A stretch of DNA of 64,000 bases from Escherichia coli. Lineage in GTDB: Bacteria > Pseudomonadota > Gammaproteobacteria > Enterobacterales > Enterobacteriaceae. A program made the translations under genes and the position numbers. Every line of letters starts with the position of its first letter. Within the stretch, counting starts at the first letter, position 1. Under the pieces are notes generated by a model. That model searched no databases. It was not told the DNA's origin and saw only the letters and a list, made by a program, of their open reading frames with translations. Below are positions 43-49,064 of this stretch, piece by piece. The stretch is taken from the NCBI RefSeq assembly GCF_965641715.1, contig NZ_OZ282453.1. One strand, 5' to 3'.

Positions 43-1677
43 TTGGTTTTGTCGCTACATGATAAATTATTAATGCATAACTTCGCATTAGCCAATAAAA
101 AAAGCCCTGACTTCATATCTGAACTTCCTCAAATTGAACCTAAACCATACAGCAATGGACATAAAATTAAATGGATAAACCACACACTTACTAGCACTGA
201 AGTTACTCCGCCTGATAACCTGATTAAAATATGCATATTGATTGAGTCAGGGGAAATTGCTATAACATCAGTAAGTGATATTGCCAATTTACTTGGAGTT
301 CCTGCTGGCCAATTACTTTATATACTATATCGTAAAAAAGATAATTATCGTACTTTTGAAATAGAAAAGAAGAATGGTAAAAAAAGAGTCATTAATGCTC
401 CTTGTGGCGGTCTATCGATACTCCAAACGAGACTAAAGCCCGTTCTTGAATATTTCTACAGGCCAAAGAAATCTGCTCATGGTTTTATAAAAGGAAAGAG
501 CATCATTACTAATGCTGGGATGCATATTAAAAAAAAATTTGTCGTAAACATTGACCTAGAAAACTATTTCGAATCAATAAGTTTTGCTAGGGTTTATGGA
601 ATATTTAAAAGTAAACCTTTTAATTTTTCTCATCCAGCAGCTACTGTTTTAGCTCAGTTATGTACTCACAATGGAAAATTACCTCAAGGTGCGTGTACAT
701 CGCCAATATTAGCAAATATTGCATCAGCTTCTCTAGACAAACAGCTCACCCAATTTGCAGGAAGAAAAAAAATATCTTATTCTAGGTATGCTGACGACAT
801 AACTTTTTCTTTCAATCAGAGAAATATTGATATAATCAAAAAAAACGACGACGGAAGTTATAGTCTTAGTGAAACTATAGACAATATTATTTCAAAAAAT
901 GGCTTTAAAATAAATTATGATAAATTTAGAGTTCAAACCAGAAATACAAGACAAAGTGTTACTGGCTTAGTGGTTAATGATAAAGTTAACATTAACAGAA
1001 GATATATAAGAATTACACGTTCAATGATTCATAGATGGACAGATGATAAGCTAAAGTATGCACTTCTCTTTGCTACAGAAAAAGGATATCAGGCAAAGGA
1101 TAATAACCACGCAATTCAAATTTTCCGAAATCATATTTATGGAAGACTTAGCTTTATAAAAATGGTTAGAGGGAAAGACTATCCAGGATATTTAAAACTG
1201 ATGTCATACATGAGTCATAACGATCCATTAAAAACCCAAGAAGGATTGCGAGCAATGAAAGAAACAGAAAACTTTGATGTTTTTATATGCCATGCAAGCG
1301 AAGACAAAAAAGACATTGCAATTCCAATATATGACGAGTTAACTAAACTTAAAATTTCAGCCTTCATAGATCATGTTGAGATAAAATGGGGCGACTCCTT
1401 AATTGAGAAAATAAATGCAGCACTAGTTAAATCAAAATATGTCATCGCTATTTTATCTGCTAATTCAGTCAATAAGGAATGGCCTCAAAAAGAATTAAGA
1501 GCAGTTTTAGCCAGCGAAATATCGAGTGGCGACGTAAAACTTTTGACCCTATTAAAAAAAGAAGACAAGGAGGTCGTAAACCTATCATTACCTTTACTTA
1601 GTGATAAGTTTTATATGGTCTATGATAATAATCCTGAAGTAGTCGCCAACAATATTAAATCACTCTTACAACGATAA
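43..1677 (+). CDS. Reverse transcriptase fused to C-terminal TIR domain (retron/defence-type RT); start ambiguous (TTG 43, TTG 49 after AGGAG, or ATG 73)
   Basis: RT motifs in translation: FVVNIDLENYF, LPQGACTSPILANI, SRYADDITFS (YADD); C-terminal FDVFICHASEDKKDIAIPIYDEL...ILSANSVNKEWPQKEL resembles TIR; in-frame stop at 37-39 limits the 5' extension. Confidence 0.85.
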   Translation: MVLSLHDKLLMHNFALANKKSPDFISELPQIEPKPYSNGHKIKWINHTLTSTEVTPPDNLIKICILIESGEIAITSVSDIANLLGVPAGQLLYILYRKKDNYRTFEIEKKNGKKRVINAPCGGLSILQTRLKPVLEYFYRPKKSAHGFIKGKSIITNAGMHIKKKFVVNIDLENYFESISFARVYGIFKSKPFNFSHPAATVLAQLCTHNGKLPQGACTSPILANIASASLDKQLTQFAGRKKISYSRYADDITFSFNQRNIDIIKKNDDGSYSLSETIDNIISKNGFKINYDKFRVQTRNTRQSVTGLVVNDKVNINRRYIRITRSMIHRWTDDKLKYALLFATEKGYQAKDNNHAIQIFRNHIYGRLSFIKMVRGKDYPGYLKLMSYMSHNDPLKTQEGLRAMKETENFDVFICHASEDKKDIAIPIYDELTKLKISAFIDHVEIKWGDSLIEKINAALVKSKYVIAILSANSVNKEWPQKELRAVLASEISSGDVKLLTLLKKEDKEVVNLSLPLLSDKFYMVYDNNPEVVANNIKSLLQR

Positions 1678-2326: not shown

Positions 2327-4729
2327 TCAGTTGTCTGTTGCACCAACCATACCCGCAAATTTGAGCCATTGTCCTGATGGACTTCTGTTACCGCGGTAGT
2401 GATAAACAAGGATTGCATTTGTTACTCCACCATAGTCAGCTTTATGTGATGTGGTTAAGCGAATTGTATAATCACCATCGGGCAGGTTAAAAACTTCAAT
2501 TACAGTCCCTGCTAATTCAACCGCTCCAAACCCCGTTATATTGTTGATGCTGCCCGCATTGAATCCCATCATATCGCCAAAACCAATCCAGTACTTTTTG
2601 CTGAACGCACCATTTGACCTCAGGTGGTTAATAAATGTGGACATACTCATGCCCATTTCGCCGCCAGTTATGGCTGATGTACGTACCGAAATACTTGGCA
2701 GAGCACTACTCTTCACATAAGAGCTCAGAAGATTTATGACTTCTGTTTTCGTATAAGCATTAACGTTAGCCGCAGTCAACGTTATATCCGCAGTGCCATC
2801 AAACTTCACACCAGCAATTTCCCTTGCAGTCTGCAATTTCGTGGCACTGGCTGCGTTACCCGTTGTATCCTGATTGCCTGCCGCATTCACCCCCGGGATC
2901 AAATCTTTTACTGTATAAATCTGCGCCCAGTCCGACTCAAACCCATACTCATCCCGTGAGGAACGATAAAACAGCCCACCATTTTTATAATTGGCCCTGA
3001 TTTGCAACGTCCGGCAACTTCCACCCCCTGTATAGAAGTTTGCAACAATATAGCTGCTGCCTGTCCGGGTGACATTGTATGCACCAGATTTGGCATTCCA
3101 CGGAACGCCTCCCTCTGACTCTGCGTGCACACCGGACGATCCAAGAGCAAAAGCAGAGACATCTGCAGCGGACAGCCTGATGTCTGATTTCAATGCCTTA
3201 CCATTCACCTTACGACCAGATGGAACCCGGTCATTTGCATTATCATTCACCGCTTTCACCGCCATTGGTGTTGCCGCCAGCGATTCACTGTCACTGTCCG
3301 TGGCACTGCTGAGCTGTACCACCCCCTTTCTCGTCGTGCTCGCATCCTCTAGCGCCACGGCAGATGCAATATCCTCTGCCCGTTTTGCTGCTGTCTCGGC
3401 ACGCGTTGCTGCAGATTCCGACGTACTTTTGCTCTGAGCTGCCGCTGTCGCACTACCAGCTGCCTCTGTCGCCTTCGTGGATGCCGTCGTGGCACTGACC
3501 TTCGCCTCTGACGCCTGTCTTACCGCCTCATCTTTTGAAGCAGACGCCGATGATGCTGATGACGCCGCCGAACTGGCGGACGATGCGGCTGCCGTTTCTG
3601 AGGCTCCTGCGCGGGTTTCCGACGCTTTCGCATTCGTCTCAGATGTCTTCGCTGCGGAAGCAGAACTCGCAGCTGCAGTGGCCTGTTCAGTGGCTTCGCC
3701 AGCCTTCGTTGTGGCTGTTGAAGCGGACGATGCAGCGCTTTCTGCCGATTTTCCGGCGGCAGCGGCACTGGCTACAGCCTCCCCTGCCTTCACTGATGCC
3801 TCACGGGCCGATGATGCAGCCGCGGTTTCTGAGCCTGCCGCAGCTGAGGCACTCTGTCCCGCTGCCGTTTCAGAAGACCTGGCGTTCGTCTCGGACGTTT
3901 TTGCCGCTTTCGCGGAATTGCCTGCCGCTGTTGCCGAGGAAGCTGCGCTACTGGCGCTCGAGGATGCGTTCGTTTCTGATGATTTTGCCGCCTCTTTTGA
4001 AGCCGCCGCATCCCGGGCTGAGGTGGCAGCTTCTGACGCTTTCGTAGTCGCGGTGGATGCAGAAGTGGCTGCTGATTGTTGTGACGCTGCCGCATTCGTT
4101 TCTGACGTTTTCGCGGCACTGGCACTGGTAGCTGCCGCGCTTTTTGAGGACTCTGCAGCGGCAGCACTTTTTGATGCTTCAGTGGCCTTTGTTGATGCCG
4201 TTCCTGCGCTGGAAGTCGCTGACTGAGCCGACGACGCGGCCTGTCCGGCTGACGTGCTGGCTGCGCGTGCTGAGCCTGCAGCATCAGTCGCATGGGTTGC
4301 CGCCTCACGGGCTGATGTGCTGGCATCACTGGCTGACTTCTTCGCGGCTGCCGTGTTCTGTGCCACCACGGACGCGTTACGCGCCACCTCTTCCACCATC
4401 AGCTCAAAACGGCGCAGTGCCTCCGGACGGGCATCATCCTCCGTCATGGCACCGAGAAAATCATTCAGCGTACCGGGTCGGGAATCTTCATACACTGTGA
4501 TGGTCCCGGCATGTGACGGCGGGAATCCTTCCACCAACAGAATAACGCTGTACTGACCGTACTCAACGTCCATGCTGTAACGCCCGGCTTCATCCGGATT
4601 TTCTGAGGCCAGCGTGTTCACCACCACCGTGGTACTGTTACGTTTTGCTTTCAGCTGGATTGTGCAGTTCTGTACCGGTTTTCCTGTGCCGTCTTTCAGT
4701 ACACCTGAAATCTTTACTGCCATATTCAC
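2327..4729 (-). CDS. stf: Side tail fibre protein Stf
   Basis: N-terminus MAVKISGVLKDGTGKPVQNCTIQLKA... lambda Stf-like; long Ala/Ser/Thr-rich repetitive shaft; follows lom and J. Confidence 0.9.
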   Translation of the reverse strand: MNMAVKISGVLKDGTGKPVQNCTIQLKAKRNSTTVVVNTLASENPDEAGRYSMDVEYGQYSVILLVEGFPPSHAGTITVYEDSRPGTLNDFLGAMTEDDARPEALRRFELMVEEVARNASVVAQNTAAAKKSASDASTSAREAATHATDAAGSARAASTSAGQAASSAQSATSSAGTASTKATEASKSAAAAESSKSAAATSASAAKTSETNAAASQQSAATSASTATTKASEAATSARDAAASKEAAKSSETNASSSASSAASSATAAGNSAKAAKTSETNARSSETAAGQSASAAAGSETAAASSAREASVKAGEAVASAAAAGKSAESAASSASTATTKAGEATEQATAAASSASAAKTSETNAKASETRAGASETAAASSASSAASSASSASASKDEAVRQASEAKVSATTASTKATEAAGSATAAAQSKSTSESAATRAETAAKRAEDIASAVALEDASTTRKGVVQLSSATDSDSESLAATPMAVKAVNDNANDRVPSGRKVNGKALKSDIRLSAADVSAFALGSSGVHAESEGGVPWNAKSGAYNVTRTGSSYIVANFYTGGGSCRTLQIRANYKNGGLFYRSSRDEYGFESDWAQIYTVKDLIPGVNAAGNQDTTGNAASATKLQTAREIAGVKFDGTADITLTAANVNAYTKTEVINLLSSYVKSSALPSISVRTSAITGGEMGMSMSTFINHLRSNGAFSKKYWIGFGDMMGFNAGSINNITGFGAVELAGTVIEVFNLPDGDYTIRLTTSHKADYGGVTNAILVYHYRGNRSPSGQWLKFAGMVGATDN

Positions 4730-17211: not shown

Positions 17212-18237
17212 TTACGCCAGTTGTACGGACACGAACTCATCAGGGTCAGCCAGCAGCATCAGCGGTGCTGACTGAATCATAGTGAACTCACGCGCCGGAT
17301 CGCCGGATGTCTTCCAGTTTTTCGGATAATGGGGAGACGCATTAATACCCTCACTCAATGCATCCGCATCCTGAATACAACCATAGGTGCGCAGACCGCG
17401 TGCCTGAGTGTTCCCCAGTACCATCGTGTTGTCCGGCAGAAAGTTCTTTTTGACGCCGTTTTCCACGTACTGTCCGGAATACACGACGATGGCCACATCG
17501 CCATACATCCCCTTATAGGACACCGCTTTACCCAGGTCTTTTACCGCTGTCTCCAGCTCGGAATGAGAGCCGCGACGGGTATCCAGCTTCTCCCTGACGG
17601 CTTTGAAGGAACGGAACAGCGCCCAGCCTTTCGGATCAAACACGATGATATTCACCACACCGCTGGCGTTCAGCGCGTAGGCTTCGATATCGTCGGTCGG
17701 GTCATACGTGGACTTGTCGCGATTGCTCCACTCCGTGCCGCCGGACTGTGTGATGTTATTCGCCTCACTGCGGCCCATATCCACCTCAACCGGATCGAAG
17801 GCTTCACCGGTCATGGTGTATTTGCCCTTAAGCACAGCAGAAACGGCCTGCATCTCTTCGACCTGAGCAATGGCAAGCTCCTCGTCTCGCATGTTCTGCA
17901 TGATGATGCGACGGCGGCGGTAAGCCGGGTCCGCCAGATTCTGTGGATCTTCATCCGGCAGGCGACGCAGGGTCATCTGCGGATTCACCTCATGCTTGGG
18001 CTTGACATATCCCGGTGTAAATTCAGAGGTGGAGCCGCCACGGGAGCGGATAACCTCACCGGAAACAATCGGCGAAACGTACAGCGCCATGTTTACCAGT
18101 CCCGGAATTTGTGAGAGATAGACTTTCTCCGTGGTGAAGGGATAGCTCTCACGGAAAAAGAGACGCAGAAACAGCGGATCAAACTTAAATTTCTGCTCAT
18201 TTGCCGCCAGCAGCTGGGCGGTTGTGTACATCGACAT
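17212..18237 (-). CDS. E: Major capsid protein E (start at MSMYTTAQLL)
   Basis: Lambda gpE-like over its full length. Confidence 0.93.
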   Translation of the reverse strand: MSMYTTAQLLAANEQKFKFDPLFLRLFFRESYPFTTEKVYLSQIPGLVNMALYVSPIVSGEVIRSRGGSTSEFTPGYVKPKHEVNPQMTLRRLPDEDPQNLADPAYRRRRIIMQNMRDEELAIAQVEEMQAVSAVLKGKYTMTGEAFDPVEVDMGRSEANNITQSGGTEWSNRDKSTYDPTDDIEAYALNASGVVNIIVFDPKGWALFRSFKAVREKLDTRRGSHSELETAVKDLGKAVSYKGMYGDVAIVVYSGQYVENGVKKNFLPDNTMVLGNTQARGLRTYGCIQDADALSEGINASPHYPKNWKTSGDPAREFTMIQSAPLMLLADPDEFVSVQLA

Positions 18238-18292
18238 AAAAAAATCCCGTAAAAAAAGCCGCACATGCGGCCTTTAGTGATGAAGGGTCAGG

Positions 18293-24887: not shown

Positions 24888-25895
24888 TTAATTGGATGAA
24901 AAGTAAAGAGTTGTACTGGGGTATGCAAAATCTGCTTTGTGATTATGCACAATATCAACAATTCTCAGATAAACTTTTTGCTGAATGTCAAGCCACTCCT
25001 CCCAGTCCCTTGTATAAGTGAAACAATACACCATAATATTCAATGAGGAATCCCCAAACTCGTTAAAATAAACAAGCAACGTCTGTCTTTGATCTATACT
25101 CTCTTCATGCATAAGATAATTACGAATATCTTCCACAATGAGCGAAATTTTTTTAGAATCCTCATATCGTAAACCAATCGTTGTTTTTATTCTCCTATTA
25201 GTCATTCTACCAGGGTTTTCTAAAGAAATATCAGAAAATAATGAGTTTGGGATATACATTGGCCTGTTTTCAAAAGTAATTACCTTTGTCAATCTCCAGC
25301 CGATTTCAGCAACAACACCCTCGATATTTCTATCCGGTGAACGAATCCAATCACCAATGTTAAATGGACGATCAAAATATAGCATAACACCAGAGAAGAA
25401 ATTACTTAGAATATCTTTGCCAGCCATGCCAACAGCGATACCCCCAATCCCACCAAAGGCAAGCAACCCGGAAAAACTCATGCCAACTTGCTGGCCGAAA
25501 ACCAATAAAGATATCAATAAAACTATTATTTTTAGAACTTTTGAAATTACTCTTGAATCAGTTACATCACGCCCTTTACTTACTTGCCTTCTCTCTAAAT
25601 AATCAATAACAATAAATGCCTTTCGTATAAAAACAGTAACAATCAACAATATTGAAAGTATCCTTACCACTGTCCTGGAAAGATATTTTATGTGAAAACC
25701 ATCGATTAAAAAAGACAAGTAATCTCCGATCAAAATAATAATACACGACCAGAGAAGTAAACTTAACAAACATCCAATAACTATGTAGTTCTTCTTACTA
25801 AAGCGAACCATGTAAAAATTAACAACAAGCGCAACAATAGCCAACAGCATAAAAATTACGCCAAGTGAGTTATGAATAAAAACATCGCGAAACAT
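24888..25895 (-). CDS. MscS-family mechanosensitive channel-like membrane protein (AT-rich moron between lysis genes and cos)
   Basis: N-terminal TM helices, then the MscS core FGGIGGIAVGMAGKDILSNFFSGVMLYFDRPFNIGDWI...EGVVAEIGWRLTKV...IPNS; ATG at 25895 preceded by AGGTGA. Confidence 0.8.
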   Translation of the reverse strand: MFRDVFIHNSLGVIFMLLAIVALVVNFYMVRFSKKNYIVIGCLLSLLLWSCIIILIGDYLSFLIDGFHIKYLSRTVVRILSILLIVTVFIRKAFIVIDYLERRQVSKGRDVTDSRVISKVLKIIVLLISLLVFGQQVGMSFSGLLAFGGIGGIAVGMAGKDILSNFFSGVMLYFDRPFNIGDWIRSPDRNIEGVVAEIGWRLTKVITFENRPMYIPNSLFSDISLENPGRMTNRRIKTTIGLRYEDSKKISLIVEDIRNYLMHEESIDQRQTLLVYFNEFGDSSLNIMVYCFTYTRDWEEWLDIQQKVYLRIVDIVHNHKADFAYPSTTLYFSSN

Positions 25896-26412
25896 CAATA
25901 TCACCTATATATCAACTACATAGAAATACTACCACCCCCTTCACAAAAAAAACAAGCAAGTAAGCACATCTTTATTTGTAAAACAATTATACATTAGGCC
26001 AAATCGACGAAAACAATCATACATTCTCATTTTACAATAAAGAATTTCTAAAACAAAAAGATACTTATATAAAATCAGCAATACGGCGCTTTCAGGTTAT
26101 ATATGCTCCATACCCCTTTACGAAGGGGAAACCAATAAACCAATCTGATGACCTAGTCAACCAATGGATGCTCAATACGTTCACCATTTTTAGCAATTTC
26201 CACTCATACAGTCAGAAATTAAACAAGCTGTGATCATATTCATGGTTTATTCCTTTTAGTGATGAACCTTGCGCACAGGAATAACCAGCCAGAGAGGGTT
26301 AACCAGACCACTACCGGTTTTCCTCAAGACTCATCCTGAAAGGTTCTCTGTTCTGTATGCACTGTGCGAAGTGCAAAAAATAAGGCCGCAGAAGCGACCT
26401 TTTCCGATGCGT

Positions 26413-29553: not shown

Positions 29554-30612
29554 TCATCCGTTCTGACTGACTAAATCCTGTACTTCCCTGACCGTCTGCT
29601 CAAAACGCTCAGTCTCCAGCTCAACACCAATCACACGACGTCCCTGCGCCATCGCTGCTTTGACTGTCGAACCTGACCCCATGAAGAAATCTGCAACCAG
29701 GTCTCCCGGACGGCTGCTTGCGCTGATTATCTGCTGCAACATTTCTGCCGGTTTTTCGCACGGGTGCTTCCCGGGATAGTACTGCACCGGTTTATGCGTC
29801 CACACATCGGTGTACGGCACCTGCACAGTCACACCGAAATACCGCCGCAAATTTTTATATTCACTCAGCAGTTCCGTATACTGCCGGTTCAGTTCACTGT
29901 ATGTGCTGACCAGTTGGTAATGTGGCTTTTCCAGTTCTCCGCACTGGTGCTTCTCTTCTGCCACTCGGGCAAACAGTGCCTGTAATTTCAGATAATCGCT
30001 TTCATTCGGTAGCTGCCACTGACTGGCACTGAACCAGTGCGACACCATGTTTTTCTTTCCTGTAGCATCCACAATCTGTTTTGCCGTAATCCCCAGGGCC
30101 GCACGCGCATCACAAAAGTAAGAAATCAGCGGGGCCATCACATGCTGTTTCAGAGCCCTGCCCTTTGCCGCATAGCCATCATTTTTTAGCTGATATGGCC
30201 CCTGATAATGTCCGGCAAACAGAATGCGCTCTGTTGCCGGAAAATACGCCCGCAGGCTTTCCTTGTTGCACCCGTTCCAACGTCCGGACGGCTTCGCCCA
30301 GATGATATGGTTAAGCACGTTGAAACGTTCACGCATCATGATCTCAATATCAGATGCCAGGCGATGTCCACAGAACAGGTAAAGGCTTCCGGCAGGTTTC
30401 AACACCCGCCAGAACTGGGCCAGACAGTGGTCCAGCCACTTAAGGTAACCTTCGTCCCCTTTCCACTGATTGTCCCAGCCGTTGGGTTTCACCTTGAAGT
30501 ACGGCGGATCGGTAACAATCAGGTCAATGGAATCATCAGGCAGGGACTGAATAAAATGCAGGCAATCAGCGTTGATCAAATCAACACTGTTTATTTTTAC
30601 AGTATTTTTCAT
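29554..30612 (-). CDS. Orphan DNA N6-adenine methyltransferase (DPPY motif)
   Basis: IDLIVTDPPYF catalytic motif and C-terminal FFMGSGST AdoMet motif; no adjacent restriction enzyme gene. Confidence 0.85.
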   Translation of the reverse strand: MKNTVKINSVDLINADCLHFIQSLPDDSIDLIVTDPPYFKVKPNGWDNQWKGDEGYLKWLDHCLAQFWRVLKPAGSLYLFCGHRLASDIEIMMRERFNVLNHIIWAKPSGRWNGCNKESLRAYFPATERILFAGHYQGPYQLKNDGYAAKGRALKQHVMAPLISYFCDARAALGITAKQIVDATGKKNMVSHWFSASQWQLPNESDYLKLQALFARVAEEKHQCGELEKPHYQLVSTYSELNRQYTELLSEYKNLRRYFGVTVQVPYTDVWTHKPVQYYPGKHPCEKPAEMLQQIISASSRPGDLVADFFMGSGSTVKAAMAQGRRVIGVELETERFEQTVREVQDLVSQNG

Positions 30613-30990: not shown

Positions 30991-31244
30991 GACATACCAA
31001 TAACTCTTGTCTAAAAAGCCAGCAAGATAAAAAGTCAGTATTCACGACCACCAGCGTGTTTACTGTACTGCACCAGGTTTACAGGTACAAAAAACCGCTC
31101 GACGGCGGGTTTAAGCTGTGTGGCGAAGTAACCACTCTTAACAGATTAAGATAAAATTTGCGGACCGCGGTAATTTTTTTTGCTAAATTAAAGCCATATA
31201 AAAAATAAGATCCATAAGAAATTATTAGTATACTAAGGTTTAAC

Positions 31245-32186
31245 ATGGCTACTATTGCGCAATCAAAGAAACAAAAAAAACTTAAAATTGGTTTTTACAC
31301 CAGCAGTTCTGGGACTATCCGCAGCCATTCAGTTGCTAAGCAAGCAATTGAAAATCTGTATAATACTTGCGTAACCGTTACGAATAATCATTTTGATACC
31401 ATCTATAGAAATAAAAAGTTAAAAATAGCTTTTATAAATAAAGATACAAAAGCTAAATATTTCTTCGGCTACATGTCATGCTCACGAGAAGAGTATCTCC
31501 TTCCTTATATTGGTGATGAACACTGGAATGAGCACAACATACCACTAGATGATAAAAAATACATAGTCGAAAGAACCTATTTTTTATATTATTACGATAG
31601 TGATATTTTAATATTAACTCAAAATCATCTTGGGCCGAAAGAATCGGATTTAGCTTATCTGCTTTACAGCCAGAGTGGTAATCCTGGAAATAACTTTTCA
31701 TTCCAAGCCATCTGGAAAAAAGAGAGCGTCAAAGAGCTACTTGAAACAGGAAGTACTTTGAGAAGTTGTGATATTGTCCTGGCTGCTCCCAGGAACTTTG
31801 ATGCAACAAATTACCAGCTAAATAGTTCATTTTCTAAGGAACTGGTAAATATGATGGTAGGGCTGGGTGGAACACGTCTCAAGTTAAATCTAAGGGGACG
31901 TGCATCAGGGAGAGTAAAAGTCAAAGGTTATTTATCAGATCTCGTTAAGGATGGTATTAAAGAACTCCTTGAAAAAATGCCGGGAATTGTAAAAAAAGCG
32001 GCAGTAACACAGCCCAAAAATACCGTTGAACAAAGTCTTCTTGATCAGGTACTCATTTCAGAAAAAAACATATATACCGTTAATGGTTATGGCACTGATA
32101 GTGATGTTCTGCAAGCCATGATTTCTGCTAAAATTGATAACAATGAATACCTTAAGCAATACGATATCAGCAAAAAGAAGGTATAG
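31245..32186 (+). CDS. RexA-like protein (remote homolog of lambda RexA)
   Basis: 313 aa, AT-rich; local matches to recalled lambda RexA (KIGFYTSS vs KNGFYATY; LGPKESDLAYLL vs FGPTTSDLTDFL); 3 nt upstream of the rexB-like gene. Confidence 0.6.
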   Translation: MATIAQSKKQKKLKIGFYTSSSGTIRSHSVAKQAIENLYNTCVTVTNNHFDTIYRNKKLKIAFINKDTKAKYFFGYMSCSREEYLLPYIGDEHWNEHNIPLDDKKYIVERTYFLYYYDSDILILTQNHLGPKESDLAYLLYSQSGNPGNNFSFQAIWKKESVKELLETGSTLRSCDIVLAAPRNFDATNYQLNSSFSKELVNMMVGLGGTRLKLNLRGRASGRVKVKGYLSDLVKDGIKELLEKMPGIVKKAAVTQPKNTVEQSLLDQVLISEKNIYTVNGYGTDSDVLQAMISAKIDNNEYLKQYDISKKKV

Positions 32187-32189
32187 GAT

Positions 32190-32633
32190 ATGTTATTGAA
32201 ATACTTAAGAAACCTGATTGTAAGTGTTTTTTGCACCTTGTTCCTACTGAGGTATATCCCTCAGATGGGGCATGCTGACATACTTACAGCCTCCGGGGTT
32301 ATTTCAACTGTATCCGGTATTTTATTTGGTTTTATTTTAGCCACAATATCAATTTTTAGTGCTGCTAGCGAAAACTCAAATGGAATAATAAAAGCATTAA
32401 AAAACAACAACATACTTCAAGTTATTATTGTAAATCTATTAACCGCAGGTGCATCTTTAATTACGGCATGCGTTATTGCTTTGATAGCAATGTTTGCCAA
32501 TGAAAAGACATTGTTACATGGAGAAAAAATAGAATTTATTTTAATTATCGAATCTTTATCTCTTCTTATCATTTCAGTAATAACTTTTGCCTTTACATGG
32601 AGAAAAGTAAACTGGATACTCCCCCACATTTAA
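32190..32633 (+). CDS. RexB-like 4-TM membrane protein
   Basis: 147 aa; N-terminal LIVSVFCTLFLLRYIPQ vs recalled lambda RexB VIVSICYLLFRHYIPG; multi-pass TM, similar length (lambda RexB is 144 aa). Confidence 0.65.
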   Translation: MLLKYLRNLIVSVFCTLFLLRYIPQMGHADILTASGVISTVSGILFGFILATISIFSAASENSNGIIKALKNNNILQVIIVNLLTAGASLITACVIALIAMFANEKTLLHGEKIEFILIIESLSLLIISVITFAFTWRKVNWILPHI

Positions 32634-32656
32634 AAAGGGCAGAAATGCCCTTTTTT

Positions 32657-42076: not shown

Positions 42077-42429
42077 ATGTTTTCGAAATGGAAGGGTTTC
42101 TTCGCGGGAAATGTGTACCGCGAGATCTGAAAGTGAACGAAACAAATGCTGAGTACCTGGTACGTAAATTCGACGCGCTTGAAGCTAAATGTGCGGCACT
42201 GGAAAACAAAATAATACCAGTGTCAACTGAACTGCCACCAGCAAATGAAAGTGTTCTGTTATTTGATGCTAATGGAGAAGGCTGGCTGATTGGCTGGCGT
42301 TCTCTCTGGTACACCTGGGGACAAAAAGAAACCGGAGAATGGCAGTGGACATTTCAGGTCGGGGACCTTGAAAACTTCAATATCACTCACTGGGCAGTAA
42401 TGCCCAAAGCGCCGGAGGCTGGAGCATAA
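42067..42429 (+). CDS. YfdS-like protein
   Basis: 120-aa ORF coupled to flanking genes; KplE1-like synteny. Confidence 0.5.
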   Translation: MRMNVFEMEGFLRGKCVPRDLKVNETNAEYLVRKFDALEAKCAALENKIIPVSTELPPANESVLLFDANGEGWLIGWRSLWYTWGQKETGEWQWTFQVGDLENFNITHWAVMPKAPEAGA

Positions 42430-43049
42430 TGACCACATTTACCAATAAAGAACTGATTAAAGAAATCAAAGAACGAATCAGCAGCCTAGAGGTTCGAGAC
42501 GATATTGAGCGCCGTGCTTATGAAATTGCTCTGGCATCGCTGGAAGAGGAGCCGGTGGCATGGCTGCATTCAGACAATGGCTTAGGTATTCCGGCAATAA
42601 CCAGGAGCAAAAACATTGCTGACAGTTGGTTATCAATGGGCTGGTATGTTCAGCCGCTATATATAGCCAAGCCAGTACTGGTGGTGCCAGATGCTCGTCC
42701 GTCTTTAAATAATGGCATAGTCGGTTTTGATGAAGGCTGGAACGCCTGCCGCGCCACCATGCTTCATGGTGCCAAACCTGTAAGCCAGACTTACAAGTTG
42801 AACAAGCTGCCGGGCAACTCTCCGGTAACTCAGGATGGTTGGATAAGCTGTAGTGAGCGAATGCCGAACGATAAACAGTATGTTTGGTGTTGGGGTAAGT
42901 CTTACGGCTGGACTGAGTGCGATACCTTCGAAGGGTATTACGATTGGTCGAGAAACAAATGGTGGGCAGTTACTGACGATGGGGAAGAACCGGCATCGAA
43001 AGTAACCCACTGGATGCCGCTACCGGAGCCACCGCAGGAGGTGAAGTAA
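42429..43049 (+). CDS. DUF551-domain protein (YfdT-like)
   Basis: 206 aa with Trp-rich C-terminus (WCWGKSYGWTECDTFEGYYDW). Confidence 0.5.
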   Translation: MTTFTNKELIKEIKERISSLEVRDDIERRAYEIALASLEEEPVAWLHSDNGLGIPAITRSKNIADSWLSMGWYVQPLYIAKPVLVVPDARPSLNNGIVGFDEGWNACRATMLHGAKPVSQTYKLNKLPGNSPVTQDGWISCSERMPNDKQYVWCWGKSYGWTECDTFEGYYDWSRNKWWAVTDDGEEPASKVTHWMPLPEPPQEVK

Positions 43050-43243
43050 TGAACAACTTAATGACAACTAAACAAGTCGCCGACTTCTGTGGCGTTTCAG
43101 TATCGACCGTTCTTCGCTGGAACAGCGTAAACAGGAGAACTGGCCAGAAATACAGGCCTGACTTTCCAGATCCTGATATTAAATCCTGCCCAAATAAATG
43201 GGCATCACGCAAGATATACAGGTTTGCTGGAGTTATTGAGTGA
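43049..43243 (+). CDS. AlpA/Xis-like small DNA-binding protein (putative excisionase)
   Basis: 64 aa, MTTKQVADFCGVSVSTVLRW HTH; last gene of the early-left operon. Confidence 0.6.
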   Translation: MNNLMTTKQVADFCGVSVSTVLRWNSVNRRTGQKYRPDFPDPDIKSCPNKWASRKIYRFAGVIE

Positions 43244-43277
43244 TGGGTATTAGCTCATATCAGAACTAATACCCATC
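43242..43277 (+). terminator. 12-bp perfect inverted repeat hairpin after xis (GATGGGTATTAG-N12-CTAATACCCATC)
   Basis: Read directly; no T-run follows, so it may be a terminator or a protein-binding site. Confidence 0.4.
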
Positions 43278-43445: not shown

Positions 43446-46400
43446 TCACACGCTGCGCCTTCGAGAATATTCATTTAATCGCTGATAACGAACATCTTGC
43501 TCCAGTTGTGGAGCAGCTTGAACAATTTGAAGCAAGCATTGCCCCAACTCTCGAGGCCCCCAGTGTTGTTCGGCAATCACGGCATTCAGCAGGGATAGAG
43601 CGTCCGCAGGATATCGGCTGCAAATATCTGATTCTAGCAAAAGGCGAACGTCGTAGCTAAGGTGTTCGAGCGGTTGCAGCCAGTCCTGCACCACTGCCAA
43701 AGCCGCCGGAAATTCACCTCGGGCAGCAATCACCATACGAGTCAACGATTCGGATATGCGTGGGGTGGCCAAGTTGCGGGACTTTGGCCAAACCTGTTGC
43801 CAAAATGGCTGGACACGATTTTTCCAATACTCCTCGCGCTGATCGCCCGCACCTTCAAGTGCCTGGTATAACGCCTGCGCGGCTACCTCCAGACCTTCTT
43901 GTGGAAGAGCACTAATTGCCGTTCGGAACTCCTCCACGGTATATCCCTCGGTAGGGCCCAGAGCTGCATAAGTCAGGAAAATAGCGAATTGCTGCCGGTG
44001 CTCGCCAAGATCAGAATAGTGATTGGCGCTCTCCAAAAAATCTGACTTGAAAGCTATCAGCAACGGTTCATACAGGCGTGGCGACCAGAGGAAGCCTTCC
44101 CACACAGCTTTTGCTTCGACGGGATTACTCCAAGCAAACAAGGGCAATAGATACTGTTCGGTCCAAGGTCGATCTACGCGAAAAAATGCGATCAGCCGCG
44201 ACCCCAGCAACACCCGACCATGGCGGAATAGCTCTATCTGTACATTACACAATTTGGTGAAAAGTGTTTTCAATTCAACAGGAAGCAAATCATTGTCATT
44301 CGGGTTCTGTTTGAACCATAGGGTGATCAGTGATTGCGTGACATGCCCAATGGGATGATTGATCGCCGTAGAAACAGGATCATAGGTCTCAATTCCGTTT
44401 CGAATGGTGCTAGACTCTGGGCTTGTTTCTATCATCAGAACCCGACGACAAAGGGCCAGTAGAATCTCCTCGTGGCAGAGGATGGTCTTCGAAGCCTCCT
44501 CCATCCACCAAGTGACAGCGTGGGAAATCTCCTGAAGTACTGCGTCAGGCATGTCAAGCACCAACGGTGCGGCGTACCGCCACGAACGCAAAATCATCCC
44601 TGGTTCAGCCCAAGTCTGCAGAGCTTCACGCCACCGACCAACAGGCCACACATCATCTTGTGATAGTTTACGTAACGCATACAGACTGTGAAAAAAGCGC
44701 GTACGGCAAACATCACTCCAAGTGTCCTCATAGAAAGGCAGTCTTTCTGGCATAGGCTTTGCGAGCCATTGCACTAATTCCTGCCACTTACGGGGCGCAA
44801 TGTCGACATCTATACTCTCCTCGAAGCCTGGATCACCGGTTCCGCTCATCCAGTGAGAGAATTCATCACGCTCGTTGGTTGCCAGTTGCCATTTTGGGTA
44901 TGCTGTGGATATTTCCGTCAAACGTGTAGCCGCAGACTCTCCCAAAACAAGGCCCGCTCCCCTGAGCTTCTCTAGACACAACCAGACGGAATGAGCCACC
45001 AAATAATGCCACCTGTCTGCTTCCAAATTATCCTCGTACATCTCGCGCGGAGGCCCTGCCAAGATAGCAGTTTCCAGACGCTCTTGTGCAATTCCTGTCA
45101 GATGTCGTCCCTGCAAAACAAACAGTCTGAATACCTCTCGCCGAGTATCCGTGGCCCACAACCACCATGAACCGTCCTCTAACAACCAATTAACCCACCG
45201 CTCAGGTGGTATGCAGTTGTCTTGGCTTGCGGCAAACAGTGCCAGACGTTTGAAGGTGGGATATGGCAACTCAAACCAATTCTGAGCAATGCGCGAGGCC
45301 TGATCGCTGTCTTTGGCTCGAACGGCTAACCATGAATCCCGAAGTAATTCAATCAGGCTCACCCAATCGCGGAACCCCCGGTTCTGCCAGTGCGGAGTGA
45401 TGGACGGCAAATCCCAATGCGAGCGGTCGTGACGATCGTCGGACTCTCCCAACTCCCGCAACAAGTCCAGTGCATCACGCAACAACTGCTGAAAATCTTC
45501 CAACAGGTATGGCAAGGACGATTTCCATGACTCGTCAGCAAGGTCGAACAGGGTTGAACGTACGTAATCAGCAGTCAGCACCAGCTCCCAATCCACCAAT
45601 TGCTTGATTCGCAAGGGTTCATCAGTGCTGCTCGAATCGTCTTCACTATAGCGAAACGGCCGCCTCAACATAACCTTGGGAGAAAGCAACTCGCGTAACT
45701 CCAAGCGCAATGTAGTCGTCAAGCCTTCATTCTTTAAGCGGTTTTGCCAACGATACAAATCCAGGTTCTGCAATGGCGATTTCACACGACCACTAAGCAG
45801 AAGCCGCCATAAAGTAGACATAGGTGGACCAGGAATAGCCAGGGGGGAATGCAAGAGAATTTCATCTAACTCAGAAGTCTTACGCTCCCGCATCAGTGCT
45901 GCTAAGCGATCTAGTTCGCTCTCAATCAGAAACATCCAACGGTCGTGTATTTGTCCGCCGCGTTCAGCAATCCATATGATCAACCTAGGGTCGCCCAGAT
46001 AACGAACTAGCCAACGGGCTATATGGGACATTACGTCATCCCATTTGCTAGCACTGACACATCCAGAAACCAGCGACATCTGCGGGGCCAGCTCATAGGG
46101 CGCAGGACGCTGAACCAGACTGAATCGGAGTTTCGGGTCAATTTCGACATGCGGAGATACACAAAAGCGTGGCAGATCGCTGTATTTAAATCGTTCGTCC
46201 GAGAAAGCTTTCAATAACCAATCCAGCGGCGGTGCAGGATTGAGTTCCGCAAAGCGTTTTGCTGGTAAACCTGATTTATCTGACAAGGCCCACAACATCC
46301 GACCAACGAAATCGTCCTGACGAGTGCTGTCCTGCGGGCGGGCCAGAGCATGTTTGACGACTATAGCCTCTTTGCCCTGTATACCATCTCGATAAGTATC

Positions 46401-47273
46401 TGCCCAAGCGTGCAACGTTTGATGCAGCACTGAATGATCAGTGGAGCTCGCCGGTACGGTGTAAAGGATAGGAGTGACCCCTTTGGCCTCCCACTCGATG
46501 GCTTTCCGGTGCTCCTGCCCCGGCTCACACTCCCCCAGTGCCCATACTTGTGGTGTGACTTCACCGAGCCTCCGATCTGCTGCAAGCGCATCCATCATGT
46601 AGCGCAGTACCGGGTCGTTGATGCTGTAGCCAACGAAGCAGACCACATAGTTACGAAATAACTCACTCACAAAGCGAGCTGCCCAACGCTCAGTGAGATA
46701 AGCCAAGCCAAAGTCACCGCTGGTAACAACCAGACGATTCAGGGCAGTATCATCCGCCTTTTCCGGTAACAGCCCATGCAGGTATACAAGTCCATCCCAG
46801 CGGCTGTTTTTTGGAATTGGCAGCATCGGCGCTACATAGGCCTGAAAAGCCTGGCCTGTACGTTTAGCTGCCACATGAAAGAGACGGTCAAAGTTGGTAG
46901 TGACCAATCGAAGGGCACCCTCGCGGCTACGGGCTAAACGTAACAGCGCCGCCTGAGTATCAATAGCGCCCCTACGACGGAGCTTTGGCTTAAGGGCTTT
47001 TTCCAACGCGCGTCGGACGGCTATACGCTGCCCTGGTAAGCGCCGTTCCAGCAAATCTAATGTGCCGTCAAATTGCCCACGCTCGAAAACCTCACGCTCA
47101 ATTTCTGAAAGTGTTGTTCCGTTCCTCTGGTAAATTAGTTCTACCAACCCTTTGAAACCAGGTAAACCAGCAGGGTAGGAAATGCCTGCTCCACAGAAGA
47201 ACACAACGCGCCCTTCCTCGTGCGCCTGCAAAAGCTCATCAGGAATATCAGGGCCGTTGGTAATGAATTGCAT
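43446..47273 (-). CDS. SIR2-domain protein, 1275 aa (defence-associated sirtuin-like; N-terminal SIR2 NADase domain + large C-terminal region)
   Basis: N-terminal VVFFCGAGISYPAGLPGF (GAGIS), LVTTNFDRLF and LVYLHGLL motifs; no P-loop seen; AGGAGG RBS. Confidence 0.8.
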   Translation of the reverse strand: MQFITNGPDIPDELLQAHEEGRVVFFCGAGISYPAGLPGFKGLVELIYQRNGTTLSEIEREVFERGQFDGTLDLLERRLPGQRIAVRRALEKALKPKLRRRGAIDTQAALLRLARSREGALRLVTTNFDRLFHVAAKRTGQAFQAYVAPMLPIPKNSRWDGLVYLHGLLPEKADDTALNRLVVTSGDFGLAYLTERWAARFVSELFRNYVVCFVGYSINDPVLRYMMDALAADRRLGEVTPQVWALGECEPGQEHRKAIEWEAKGVTPILYTVPASSTDHSVLHQTLHAWADTYRDGIQGKEAIVVKHALARPQDSTRQDDFVGRMLWALSDKSGLPAKRFAELNPAPPLDWLLKAFSDERFKYSDLPRFCVSPHVEIDPKLRFSLVQRPAPYELAPQMSLVSGCVSASKWDDVMSHIARWLVRYLGDPRLIIWIAERGGQIHDRWMFLIESELDRLAALMRERKTSELDEILLHSPLAIPGPPMSTLWRLLLSGRVKSPLQNLDLYRWQNRLKNEGLTTTLRLELRELLSPKVMLRRPFRYSEDDSSSTDEPLRIKQLVDWELVLTADYVRSTLFDLADESWKSSLPYLLEDFQQLLRDALDLLRELGESDDRHDRSHWDLPSITPHWQNRGFRDWVSLIELLRDSWLAVRAKDSDQASRIAQNWFELPYPTFKRLALFAASQDNCIPPERWVNWLLEDGSWWLWATDTRREVFRLFVLQGRHLTGIAQERLETAILAGPPREMYEDNLEADRWHYLVAHSVWLCLEKLRGAGLVLGESAATRLTEISTAYPKWQLATNERDEFSHWMSGTGDPGFEESIDVDIAPRKWQELVQWLAKPMPERLPFYEDTWSDVCRTRFFHSLYALRKLSQDDVWPVGRWREALQTWAEPGMILRSWRYAAPLVLDMPDAVLQEISHAVTWWMEEASKTILCHEEILLALCRRVLMIETSPESSTIRNGIETYDPVSTAINHPIGHVTQSLITLWFKQNPNDNDLLPVELKTLFTKLCNVQIELFRHGRVLLGSRLIAFFRVDRPWTEQYLLPLFAWSNPVEAKAVWEGFLWSPRLYEPLLIAFKSDFLESANHYSDLGEHRQQFAIFLTYAALGPTEGYTVEEFRTAISALPQEGLEVAAQALYQALEGAGDQREEYWKNRVQPFWQQVWPKSRNLATPRISESLTRMVIAARGEFPAALAVVQDWLQPLEHLSYDVRLLLESDICSRYPADALSLLNAVIAEQHWGPRELGQCLLQIVQAAPQLEQDVRYQRLNEYSRRRSV

Positions 47274-47455
47274 TCCTTTTCCTCCTATCCAATGTGCACG
47301 TTCATTCGAGTAAATGAAGGCAAGGGGTTACATCTTATTATACCGACCGTGCAAATCCGGCTTCCTAGCAAGCTACTTTACTTGCCAACTCATAATGTCC
47401 GAACTCCGAACAAAGCGGACTGCTAGATTTGATTGCGTTCTAGCTACGCAAAATA

Positions 47456-48679
47456 TCATTTCGAGCCTGAACGAGTACAAGTAACAATCGATTCAACTCT
47501 CTCCCACCATGCCTGGTAGGCTTTACGCTGTTCTTCTAGATAATCACTCTTGTCATAAACTTGCCATACACCTGGCAGTTTATGACCGAGCATTATTTCA
47601 GCAATATGAGGCGCAGTAAGATCAGAAAAGTTTGTTCGTGCTGTTCGTCTCAAATCATGAAGAGACCAATGAGGAAATTGATACCCCAAACGCCGCCATG
47701 CGTACTGCATTAAATTGTAAGGCAGCGACTGCAATGATGTCCGACCAACTGGTTCCCTGCTTCCTTCCTTAGTAAAAAGCATATCGGAACCGTTGTTCAT
47801 AGAGATAACGTATTTTATAAGCTCTTCAACCGGTTCAATAATGGGCCGCTTTAGCGGTTTGCCTGTTATATCCCCTGTCTTATGTCGTTCTGGTGGTACA
47901 GTCCATATTTTATTAATGAAATCAAAATCGTCCACCTTGGCAGTAATTAGCTCTGAACTACGGCAACCAAAATGCAGCAATAGTTTAATGAAGGCCCGGT
48001 ATTTAGGAACCATTCGAGAACCATCGATCGCAGCATAAAGGATTTTAATTTCATCATGTGTCAGAAACCGTTTCTTCTGACCTTTACGGATATCCATATC
48101 TTTACCCGTGATATCCGACAGCGGGCGAGTTTCAATGAGCTTTCTCTTATACGCCCAGACATGGGCCTGCTTTGCGTTAATTAGCAATCGGTCTGCTATT
48201 GCTGGAGTCTTAGTGCTAAGAGGCTCCAGGACTTCTAACCAATCATGCAATGTAGCTGCATCGTGAGGGATATTCCCGATTTTAGAGAACAGGTGCAGCT
48301 CAAACGAGCGGAGTATCTGTTCAGAACCTTTTTTATTTTTTACACAATATGCTTCATACCAAGCACGGATCACAGATTCTACCGTCATGGCTTCAGTAGC
48401 TTTACGTTTTTCTGCCAGCTTGACCAATCGTGGATTGCGGTTTGACTCGAGTTCACCACGAAGACGGATAACTTCTTCTCTGGCCTCTTTTAGTCCAGTT
48501 GCCGGGTAAGTTCCGATATCAAGACGCTCACCTTTCCCCGCCCACTGATAACGATATTGGAACACTACGCGACCTTTCGGTGATACTCTAACAGACAGAC
48601 CATCACGATCGGATTTAACCAAAACCTTATCACGTTCCTTTCCAACGACTGAACGCAACCACGCATCAGACAGCGCCAT
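47456..48679 (-). CDS. int: Tyrosine recombinase / phage integrase (P4-type)
   Basis: 407 aa; C-terminal catalytic region with HDLRRT and LGHKL...Y motifs; adjacent to host yjjG. Confidence 0.9.
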   Translation of the reverse strand: MALSDAWLRSVVGKERDKVLVKSDRDGLSVRVSPKGRVVFQYRYQWAGKGERLDIGTYPATGLKEAREEVIRLRGELESNRNPRLVKLAEKRKATEAMTVESVIRAWYEAYCVKNKKGSEQILRSFELHLFSKIGNIPHDAATLHDWLEVLEPLSTKTPAIADRLLINAKQAHVWAYKRKLIETRPLSDITGKDMDIRKGQKKRFLTHDEIKILYAAIDGSRMVPKYRAFIKLLLHFGCRSSELITAKVDDFDFINKIWTVPPERHKTGDITGKPLKRPIIEPVEELIKYVISMNNGSDMLFTKEGSREPVGRTSLQSLPYNLMQYAWRRLGYQFPHWSLHDLRRTARTNFSDLTAPHIAEIMLGHKLPGVWQVYDKSDYLEEQRKAYQAWWERVESIVTCTRSGSK

Positions 48680-48745: not shown

Positions 48746-49064
48746 GATTTTTGATGAAAGTAACCTGATCAATTTAAAGTTACATGAAAGAATTTTCAAT
48801 CAAAGAAATCACATAACATCATGTTATTAAATGAGTTATATAATTATTACTCAATTAATTGAAAGGATTTTGAAAGAGTAAAAGAGCTTTTATTTGGGCT
48901 TAATTATTGGGGTGAGAAATAATGGCAAAAGTGCGGCGCTTCGCCACCTCTTGCAAATAAGGAGACAACGTCATAATTCTTTCTTCTTGAGTAAGCGGCA
49001 TCGCGCCGCGCTTGTTGAAAACGAAAAATTGCGGCTATTTTACCCATCAACGGGGGGGAGGCAA

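What the first reader, a model, noticed from the sequence alone, without database searches (positions are those of the whole stretch)
43446..47273. 1275-aa single-gene SIR2-domain protein in the xis-int cargo slot (DSR-like NADase candidate with a large uncharacterised C-terminal region)
The translation starts with a canonical sirtuin/SIR2 core: the GAGIS Rossmann motif (VVFFCGAGISYPAGLPGF), TTNFD and YLHG, which carry the Asn/His used by NAD-cleaving SIR2 domains. I found no Walker A motif, so it does not look like a STAND/Avs NTPase, and the remaining roughly 1000 residues show no motif I recognise. The gene has a strong AGGAGG RBS and sits alone, on the opposite strand, between the AlpA-like xis and the integrase. 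SIR2 fused to large sensor domains (DSR1/DSR2-type defence-associated sirtuins) is known to abort infection by NAD+ depletion. Whether this C-terminal region matches any described DSR sensor is unknown from sequence alone and could be a new sensing module.
Basis: partly seen in the sequence, partly recalled or inferred. Interest (0 to 1): 0.8.

Follow-up and report, generated by a model that had tools for sequence, protein, structure and literature searches.

The report
Known anti-phage sirtuin gene Dsr1
This gene is an ordinary, already catalogued copy of Dsr1, a bacterial anti-virus protein that destroys the cell's NAD+ when it senses an infecting phage; here a resident prophage carries it as cargo next to its integrase.

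Summary
It is not a new "DSR-like" protein. It is Dsr1 itself. It matches the curated NCBIfam Dsr1 equivalog end to end (2056.9 bits, cut-off 1400) and the PADLOC Dsr1 model over 1-1275 of 1275 (2732.7 bits). Its DNA is 100% identical to genes annotated "dsr1" in complete E. coli genomes, and 75 of 5426 genomes carry the gene. The N-terminus is a SIR2 NADase domain; Asn127, Asp129 and His166 are invariant in 66 of 66 diverse homologues. The C-terminal 975 residues have no Pfam match. They are the conserved Dsr1 alpha-solenoid sensor, shared by 2767 protein clusters at 50% identity. A 2026 preprint reports that this sensor is homologous to the Avs7 sensor and is triggered by phage major capsid protein. 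The context claim holds. The gene sits between an excisionase and a tyrosine integrase at the end of a lambdoid prophage inserted next to yjjG. Related prophages carry other cargo in that slot, including an anti-phage dCTP deaminase. Interest is low.

The parts
43446..47273 (-). dsr1 coding sequence (1275 aa plus stop)
   Evidence: ORF list and translation. NCBIfam NF041818.1 Dsr1 equivalog, 2056.9 bits against a cut-off of 1400. PADLOC PDLC02183 Dsr1, 2732.7 bits over 1-1275/1275. 100% DNA identity to annotated dsr1 (WP_048943335.1) in several complete E. coli genomes.
46464..47240 (-). N-terminal SIR2 (NADase effector) domain, about residues 12-270
   Evidence: Pfam SIR2_2 PF13289, E 1.8e-23, residues 123-269. 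Alignment to the solved SIR2 NADase KomC over residues 12-245. A family profile hits the SIR2 regions of KomC, ThsA and DSR2 only.
46893..46895 (-). codon of Asn127 (TTNFD motif), the putative catalytic or NAD-binding Asn
   Evidence: Position. N is present in 66/66 homologues down to 32% identity. It aligns with TTNYD of KomC.
46776..46778 (-). codon of His166 (YLHG motif), the putative catalytic His
   Evidence: Position. H is present in 66/66 homologues. It aligns with KomC His146, the residue replaced in the deposited H146N variant.
43449..46373 (-). C-terminal sensor region, residues 301-1275: an all-alpha solenoid
   Evidence: No Pfam match. AlphaFold2 model with pLDDT 89.7 and pTM 0.80, almost entirely helical. 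Conserved in 2767 clusters at 50% identity; the 150 listed are Dsr1-length proteins or shorter sequences. AFDB50 matches are SIR2-family and 'DUF4020' proteins at TM up to 0.97. Only generic HEAT/ARM similarity in the PDB. Reported as an Avs7-type sensor for major capsid protein in PMC12803255.
47281..47286 (-). Shine-Dalgarno AGGAGG, 7 nt before the ATG
   Evidence: Read directly from the sequence.
47337..47342 (-). perfect TATAAT hexamer in the 182-bp int-dsr1 gap; a possible -10 element (pattern only)
   Evidence: Read. No matching -35 was found, and the consensus scan found no promoter here and no excess over shuffles. A native promoter within 300 bp upstream was sufficient for the ECOR17 dsr1 (PMC9391042).
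43049..43243 (+). prophage excisionase (xis); converges on the dsr1 3' end
   Evidence: phrog_1553 excisionase, 122.5 bits, 1-64 of 65. Pfam HTH_17, E 2.9e-4. Not annotated in the RefSeq genomes inspected.
47456..48679 (-). prophage tyrosine integrase, upstream of dsr1 on the same strand
   Evidence: phrog_1 integrase, 257.6 bits. Annotated as tyrosine-type recombinase/integrase WP_001218277.1. Present at >=95% identity in 697 of the 699 E. coli complete genomes that have a match.
48910..48923 (.). 14-bp att core GGGTGAGAAATAAT; prophage end next to yjjG
   Evidence: Identical to the 'duplication due to insertion' annotated in the Stx2c-converting phage record LC727881.1. There is a single copy in the window, so the other prophage end lies left of coordinate 1.

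Best explanation
The gene is dsr1, the single-gene anti-phage system 'defence-associated sirtuin 1'. A lambdoid E. coli prophage inserted beside yjjG carries it as accessory cargo between xis and int. Shown here: it is a full-length member of the curated Dsr1 family; it has an N-terminal SIR2 domain with invariant Asn127, Asp129 and His166; it has a conserved ~975-residue alpha-solenoid C-terminal region; it has no NTPase motif and no partner gene; and its slot is variable among related prophages. Inferred from published work on close homologues, not tested on this allele: in uninfected cells the enzyme is inactive; during infection the C-terminal solenoid binds a phage structural protein, reported to be the major capsid protein of Drexlerviridae phages such as ZL19 and T1; this releases the NAD+ glycohydrolase activity of the SIR2 domain; NAD+ falls and phage replication is blocked. 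Phage T4 escapes with the early gene nrdC.5. The prophage probably benefits by protecting its lysogen from unrelated phages.
For: Identity: NF041818.1 Dsr1 equivalog, 2056.9 bits against a cut-off of 1400, 1-1271 of the protein on 1-1263/1263 of the model; PADLOC Dsr1, 2732.7 bits, 1-1275/1275; 100% identical DNA annotated as dsr1 in E. coli 1916D18, FDAARGOS_1286 and others, with 75/5426 genomes carrying it; the exact protein is on record as 'anti-phage defense-associated sirtuin Dsr1 [Enterobacteriaceae]' on 488 contigs. Effector: SIR2_2, E 1.8e-23; N127, D129 and H166 are 66/66 conserved; H166 aligns with KomC His146. Sensor: high-confidence helical solenoid that is family-wide. No Walker A motif. 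Function in homologues: DSR1 defends and lowers NAD+ during infection (bioRxiv 10.1101/2021.12.14.472415). E. coli ECOR17 dsr1, expressed from its native promoter, blocks a T4 mutant, and nrdC.5 restores infection (PMC9391042). [quoted passage not shown] Context: the slot is variable and also holds an anti-phage dCTP deaminase.
Against: No experiment bears on this exact allele. I could not measure its identity to the tested proteins (EcDsr1 WP_029488749.1, ECOR17 Dsr1); some searches found other accessions only. The capsid trigger and the Avs7 homology rest on one preprint. My own searches did not reach non-SIR2 architectures: the top 150 representatives are Dsr1-length proteins or shorter sequences, and the only hint is one 'ATP-binding protein' fragment at TMq 0.85. 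The outcome is reported inconsistently. One study saw transient NAD+ loss without culture collapse for a DSR1 in B. subtilis. The other saw cell death when capsid protein was co-expressed with EcDsr1. No promoter above chance level was found upstream.
Confidence: 0.93

Rival explanations
1. It is a DSR2-type sirtuin: a SIR2 NADase whose C-terminal domain senses phage tail tube protein and is inhibited by DSAD1.
For: It has the same broad layout, with an N-terminal SIR2 domain and a long helical C-terminal region. A family profile weakly hits the SIR2 part of solved DSR2 (E 0.0055, profile positions 18-148).
Confidence: 0.02
2. It is a housekeeping NAD-dependent protein deacylase (CobB/Sir2-like) with an accessory domain.
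For: It carries the sirtuin Rossmann motif GAGIS. There are weak matches of residues 19-51 to NCBIfam deacylase models and to SIRT2, SIRT3 and HST2 chains.
Against: The deacylase models score 11.4 and 10.7 bits against cut-offs of 221 and 243. The Pfam family is SIR2_2, not the canonical SIR2 family. The gene is prophage cargo present in only 75/5426 E. coli genomes, which is not a core-gene pattern.
Confidence: 0.01
3. It is an Avs5-like or other STAND NTPase with a SIR2 effector that oligomerises through an ATPase module.
For: SIR2 effectors do occur on STAND proteins (Avs5; PMC11897194, listed). The Dsr1 sensor is reported to be shared with the STAND family Avs7.
Against: No Walker A motif occurs anywhere. 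There is no Pfam NTPase domain. No Avs model appears among the PADLOC hits. [quoted passage not shown]
Confidence: 0.01
4. It is Dsr1, but in this prophage it works mainly as a non-lethal, reversible metabolic brake (transient NAD+ dip, cell survives) and not as abortive infection. Alternatively its main targets are competing temperate phages.
For: A DSR1 in B. subtilis gave only transient NAD+ depletion and no culture collapse. The gene is carried by a temperate phage, whose own lambda-E-type capsid protein is unrelated in sequence to the T1 capsid protein named in the trigger study, where the toxicity screen itself used ZL19 genes (BLASTP E 2.2, different PHROGs).
Against: Co-expression of capsid protein with EcDsr1 caused cell death. 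Nothing here measures the outcome for this allele.
Confidence: 0.3

Closest known systems
E. coli Dsr1 (EcDsr1, WP_029488749.1; discovered by Gao et al. 2020, Science 369:1077; studied in PMC12803255) and the NCBIfam family NF041818.1 / PADLOC Dsr1
   Same: Same family by curated full-length models, same species, same length class (1275 aa), same SIR2 head plus solenoid sensor, and a single gene. RefSeq names the identical protein (WP_048943335.1) Dsr1.
   Different: The accession differs. Percent identity to WP_029488749.1 could not be measured with the tools available. No phenotype is known for this allele.
Dsr1 of E. coli ECOR17 (Srikant et al. 2022, eLife, PMC9391042)
   Same: A chromosomal E. 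coli dsr1, active from 300 bp of native upstream DNA. It restricts T4 lacking nrdC.5.
   Different: The sequence relationship was not measured, and the ECOR17 locus context was not examined.
DSR2 of Bacillus subtilis 29R (solved structures 8k98, 8wyb and others)
   Same: A single-gene SIR2 NADase with a long helical C-terminal sensor. It depletes NAD+ on sensing a phage structural protein.
   Different: The sensor is unrelated at sequence level and is not among the best fold matches. The DSR2 trigger is tail tube protein and its inhibitor is DSAD1 (abstracts). DSR2 is about 1005 aa against 1275 aa here.
Avs7 (STAND NTPase family, PMC12803255)
   Same: It is reported to share a homologous bilobed repeat sensor with Dsr1 and the same trigger class, major capsid protein.
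   Different: Avs7 has a STAND NTPase and variable effectors. This protein has no NTPase motif. The homology was not independently reproduced here.
KomC SIR2 NADase (PDB 8zsf, 9xvc)
   Same: It is the closest solved SIR2 domain by sequence (E 1.2e-5 over residues 12-245), with the GAG(I/V)S, TTN(F/Y)D and HG motifs aligned.
   Different: KomC is a 264-aa stand-alone SIR2 subunit of a multi-protein system and has no sensor domain.

Membership tests
Dsr1 (defence-associated sirtuin 1) | Full-length match to the curated family model above its trusted cut-off | tested here: met
   NF041818.1 equivalog, 2056.9 bits against a cut-off of 1400, covering 1-1271 of the protein and 1-1263/1263 of the model. 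PADLOC PDLC02183 Dsr1, 2732.7 bits, 1-1275/1275; a second Dsr1 model scores 645 bits.
Dsr1 (defence-associated sirtuin 1) | N-terminal SIR2 domain with the conserved Asn and His of NAD-cleaving SIR2 enzymes | tested here: met
   SIR2_2, E 1.8e-23. N127, D129 and H166 are present in 66/66 homologues. H166 aligns with KomC H146.
Dsr1 (defence-associated sirtuin 1) | About 950-1000-residue C-terminal helical sensor co-linear with that of other Dsr1 proteins | tested here: met
   The C-terminal query alone recovers Dsr1 proteins at 75-82% identity and 100% coverage, and 2767 clusters at 50% identity with the sensor starting near residue 300. AFDB50 TM scores reach 0.97. The AF2 model has pLDDT 89.7.
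Dsr1 (defence-associated sirtuin 1) | Single-gene system: no NTPase module and no obligatory partner gene | tested here: met
   No Walker A motif. The neighbours are xis, which converges, and int; there are no other ORFs in the unit.
Dsr1 (defence-associated sirtuin 1) | Protects against phage and lowers NAD+ on infection; depends on the SIR2 catalytic residues | not testable with these tools
   Known only for homologues.
Dsr1 (defence-associated sirtuin 1) | Sensor homologous to the Avs7 sensor and triggered by phage major capsid protein | not tested
   Literature only (PMC12803255). My searches listed only Dsr1-type architectures. One 'ATP-binding protein' fragment in AFDB50 (TMq 0.85) is a hint, not a test.
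DSR2 | Match to Dsr2 family models, or C-terminal domain similar to the DSR2 tail-tube-binding domain | tested here: not met
Avs5 / STAND NTPase with SIR2 effector | Central STAND (NOD) NTPase domain with a Walker A motif | tested here: not met
   No [AG]xxxxGK[ST] motif. No NTPase Pfam domain. No Avs hit in PADLOC.
Housekeeping sirtuin deacylase (CobB type) | Score above the cut-off of the NCBIfam NAD-dependent deacylase models | tested here: not met
   11.4 bits against 221 and 10.7 bits against 243, covering residues 19-51 only.
Thoeris ThsA | SIR2 plus a SLOG/STALD signal-binding domain, with a ThsB TIR partner gene | tested here: not met
   The ThsA model scores only 20.7 bits, confined to the SIR2 region 13-230. 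There is no adjacent TIR gene.

The most novel reading that the evidence does not exclude
The most novel reading still open concerns context, not identity. Dsr1 reportedly fires on phage major capsid protein, yet this copy is carried by an apparently complete lambdoid prophage that must build its own capsid on induction. So this prophage-borne allele may discriminate between capsid families, sparing the lambda-E-type capsid protein of its carrier, which is unrelated in sequence to the T1 capsid protein. Alternatively the prophage may encode an unrecognised way of silencing Dsr1 during its own lytic cycle. In addition, no experimental structure of the Dsr1 sensor exists, so how capsid binding switches on the SIR2 head without an NTPase oligomerisation module is unknown.
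Probability: 0.12. Interest if true: 0.4.

Novelty: already known. Interest (0 to 1): 0.08.

Why it matters
It matters little as a discovery. The gene is a textbook example of a named, curated, experimentally studied defence system, and public genomes annotate it identically. It is useful as a positive control: the first-stage reader recognised a defence sirtuin and its cargo slot from raw sequence alone. The more productive lead is the slot itself. In hundreds of E. coli genomes the same integrase is followed by other cargo. One is a known anti-phage dCTP deaminase. Three are hypothetical proteins with no PADLOC match, and these are reasonable candidates for uncharacterised defence genes.

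Full report
**Observation.** The window contains an uninterrupted ORF at 43446..47273 on the - strand (1275 codons, ATG start). AGGAGG precedes it by 7 nt. A regular-expression search finds no Walker A motif anywhere in the protein. Pfam places a SIR2_2 domain (PF13289, E 1.8e-23) at residues 123-269. It finds nothing in residues 301-1275, even at E<=10. So the description is accurate, including the statement that the C-terminal ~1000 residues show no recognisable motif.

**Identity.** The protein is not merely DSR-like. It is Dsr1.
- Against PADLOC-DB it matches the Dsr1 model PDLC02183 over 1-1275 of 1275 positions with 2732.7 bits, and a second Dsr1 model with 645 bits.
- Against NCBIfam it matches the equivalog NF041818.1, "anti-phage defense-associated sirtuin Dsr1", with 2056.9 bits against a curated cut-off of 1400. 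The housekeeping deacylase models score 11 bits against cut-offs above 220.
- The DNA is 100% identical to genes annotated dsr1 (WP_048943335.1) in several complete E. coli genomes. 75 of 5426 complete genomes carry the gene, always on the chromosome, and 66 of them at >=99% identity.
- The exact protein sequence is on record under the name [quoted passage not shown] on 488 contigs.
- One deposited phage record, Stx2c-converting phage Stx2c_JNE082796, also contains the gene at 99.9% identity, unannotated.

**Effector domain.** I aligned 66 homologues spanning 82% down to 32% identity. Asn127, Asp129 and His166 are present in 66 of 66, and the GAGIS glycines in 65 of 66. The closest solved relative by sequence is the SIR2 NADase KomC (E 1.2e-5 over residues 12-245). 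In that alignment TTNFD pairs with TTNYD, and His166 pairs with KomC His146, the residue replaced in the deposited H146N variant. A family profile searched against all PDB sequences hits only SIR2 regions (KomC, ThsA, DSR2, eukaryotic sirtuins). Nothing matches the C-terminal 975 residues.

**Sensor region.** Searching with residues 301-1275 alone returns thousands of relatives.
- The word-index search found 2606 proteins. The best 120 are 74-82% identical over the whole query. Nearly all are 1266-1281 aa long and carry PF13289; three shorter ones (1003-1035 aa) have no recorded Pfam domain. They come from Enterobacterales, Vibrio, Rhodocyclales, Ferrovum and others.
- The exhaustive search over 50%-identity representatives found 2767 clusters at E<=0.001 and 865 at E<=1e-30. 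In the full-length proteins among the top 150 the matching region begins near residue 300; the rest are shorter sequences.
- An AlphaFold2 model built on a 67-sequence alignment is confident (mean pLDDT 89.7, pTM 0.80) and almost entirely alpha-helical, with two or three small beta hairpins.
- Against AFDB50 it matches SIR2-family proteins and proteins labelled DUF4020 at TM up to 0.97, including an archaeal (Methanosarcina) protein and one "ATP-binding protein" fragment at TMq 0.85.

So the C-terminal region is the conserved Dsr1 solenoid. It has no experimentally solved relative, and it is not the DSR2 sensor.

**What is published on Dsr1.**
- DSR1 was described as a single-gene SIR2 defence system by Gao et al. 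2020. I cite this through later papers because the paper itself is not held.
- Garb et al. showed that a DSR1 cloned in B. subtilis protects against phage and that NAD+ falls during infection. The fall was transient, and the culture did not collapse with phage phi29.
- Srikant et al. found that dsr1 of E. coli ECOR17, expressed from 300 bp of native upstream DNA, blocks a T4 derivative. The T4 early gene nrdC.5 neutralises it.
- A 2026 preprint (PMC12803255) makes four relevant reports. The E. coli Dsr1 sensor is homologous to the sensor of the STAND family Avs7. AlphaFold3 models show a bilobed, sharply bent repeat architecture. A 73-gene co-expression screen identified the ZL19 major capsid protein as the unique trigger of EcDsr1-mediated cell death. 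[quoted passage not shown]

It does: it is the Dsr1 sensor, and a trigger has been proposed for it.

**Mechanism, with the status of each step.**
- Shown here: family membership, an intact SIR2 catalytic signature, a conserved solenoid sensor, absence of an NTPase, and single-gene organisation.
- Inferred from homologues: the sensor binds a phage structural protein (capsid protein). This activates NAD+ hydrolysis by the SIR2 head. NAD+ loss stops phage replication. Phages can carry inhibitors such as T4 NrdC.5.
- Unresolved: whether the outcome is abortive (cell death) or a reversible brake. The two published observations differ, and they used different homologues and hosts.

**Context.**
- The gene sits at the end of a lambdoid prophage. 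To the left, on the + strand, run yfdP, yfdQ, yfdR (a 5'-deoxynucleotidase), a phage protein, a DUF551-type ORF and then a 64-aa excisionase (phrog_1553, 122.5 bits). Further left lie the repressor region, replication genes, lysis genes, terminase, portal, capsid and tail genes.
- To the right, on the same strand as dsr1, is a tyrosine integrase (phrog_1, 257.6 bits). Beyond it are a 14-bp att core (GGGTGAGAAATAAT, 48910-48923) and the chromosomal genes yjjG, rimI, holD and rsmC. The att core is annotated as the insertion duplication in the Stx2c phage record.
- So dsr1 is convergent with xis and co-directional with int.
- The excisionase gives a Pfam HTH_17 signal and no Phage_AlpA match.
- The slot is truly variable. 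The integrase matches in 699 of 5426 genomes, at >=95% identity in 697 of them, but dsr1 occurs in only 75.
- In four other genomes sampled, the same position holds an anti-phage dCTP deaminase (PADLOC dCTPase, 543.9 bits) or hypothetical proteins with no PADLOC match.
- The homology break lies within the last ~24 bases of the integrase gene (query_from values of 1, 12, 19, 22 and 24).

**Self-triggering.** A capsid-sensing defence gene is carried by a phage that must make capsids. The resident prophage's major capsid protein (17212..18264, -; phrog_6020, lambda-E type, 709 bits) shows no sequence similarity to the T1 major capsid protein (phrog_264; BLASTP E 2.2). That is compatible with the carrier not triggering its own Dsr1. 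It proves nothing, because both capsid proteins presumably share the HK97 fold (a point from general knowledge, not tested here).

**Verdict.** The gene is an already known, curated, routinely annotated defence gene. Interest as a finding is low. The residual open points are the lack of a solved Dsr1 sensor structure, the activation mechanism without an NTPase, the capsid self/non-self question, and the uncharacterised cargos in the same slot. These are leads, not discoveries made here.

Noticed in passing
window 43..1677 (+), in the low-GC (0.33) region 1-2500: A second known defence gene lies at the other end of the window: a retron-type reverse transcriptase fused to a TIR domain. PADLOC RT-TIR_XII scores 621.5 bits. 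NCBIfam NF042941.1, 'TIR domain-containing anti-phage reverse transcriptase', scores 671.1 bits against a cut-off of 600 and matches from residue ~76, so the true start is probably downstream of the listed TTG. It lies just beyond the tail-fibre gene 2327..4729 (-). Related genomes annotate the same gene there. The msr/msd non-coding RNA was not searched for.
   Followed up: partly
loci L003 4639-5634 (+), L004 4263-5811 (+), L005 4564-5817 (-), L006 4215-5810 (+); these correspond to window 43446-47273: In other E. coli genomes the same xis-int slot of this yjjG-site prophage family holds different cargo. One is an anti-phage dCTP deaminase (H106; PADLOC dCTPase, 543.9 bits). Three have no PADLOC hit: WP_000653746.1 (331 aa); WP_015740443.1 (436 aa) with WP_000551783.1 (81 aa); and WP_072291037.1 (417 aa). 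By location these are candidate uncharacterised defence genes.
   Followed up: partly
window 31245..32186 (+) and 32190..32633 (+), low-GC (0.36) island 31000-33000: Two adjacent ORFs (313 and 147 aa) lie on the strand opposite to the surrounding late and regulatory genes, in a sharp low-GC island. They have no PADLOC or NCBIfam match. This is an unexplained two-gene moron.
   Followed up: no
window 24888..25904 (-), low-GC (0.34-0.40) island 24000-26000: A 338-aa ORF has a weak MscS-like mechanosensitive-channel match (73 bits, far below the cut-off of 500). It sits in a low-GC insertion between the terminase and lysis regions. The closest dsr1 genome (FDAARGOS_1286) annotates only a ~320-bp hypothetical gene between its DNA-packaging and lysis genes, so this cargo may differ between otherwise similar prophages; that was not checked.
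   Followed up: no
window 29554..30612 (-): A prophage-borne orphan DNA methyltransferase (PADLOC MTase_II, 515.4 bits). RefSeq genomes annotate it as a DNA-methyltransferase next to the lysis cassette.
   Followed up: no
window 43049..43243 (+) and 42429..43049 (+): The excisionase ORF (phrog_1553, 122.5 bits) is not annotated at all in the two RefSeq genomes inspected. The intact 206-aa ORF upstream of it is annotated there as two pseudogene fragments (a hypothetical protein plus DUF551), although BH100N and H106 annotate a full 206-aa DUF551 protein. These look like annotation artefacts, not biology.
   Followed up: partly
window 48910..48923; phage record LC727881.1 (locus L012 8465-8478): The 14-bp att core GGGTGAGAAATAAT, annotated as the insertion duplication of an Stx2c-converting phage, is present once in the window, between int and yjjG. 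That 92.9-kb phage record carries the same dsr1 at 99.9% identity without annotation. The other prophage end lies beyond the left edge of the window.
   Followed up: yes
window 43242..43277: A perfect 12-bp inverted repeat (GATGGGTATTAG ... CTAATACCCATC) overlaps the xis stop codon (43241-43243) and extends downstream into the 202-bp gap between the convergent xis and dsr1 genes. It may be a bidirectional terminator or a protein-binding site. There is no T-run, and the terminator scan did not call it.
   Followed up: no
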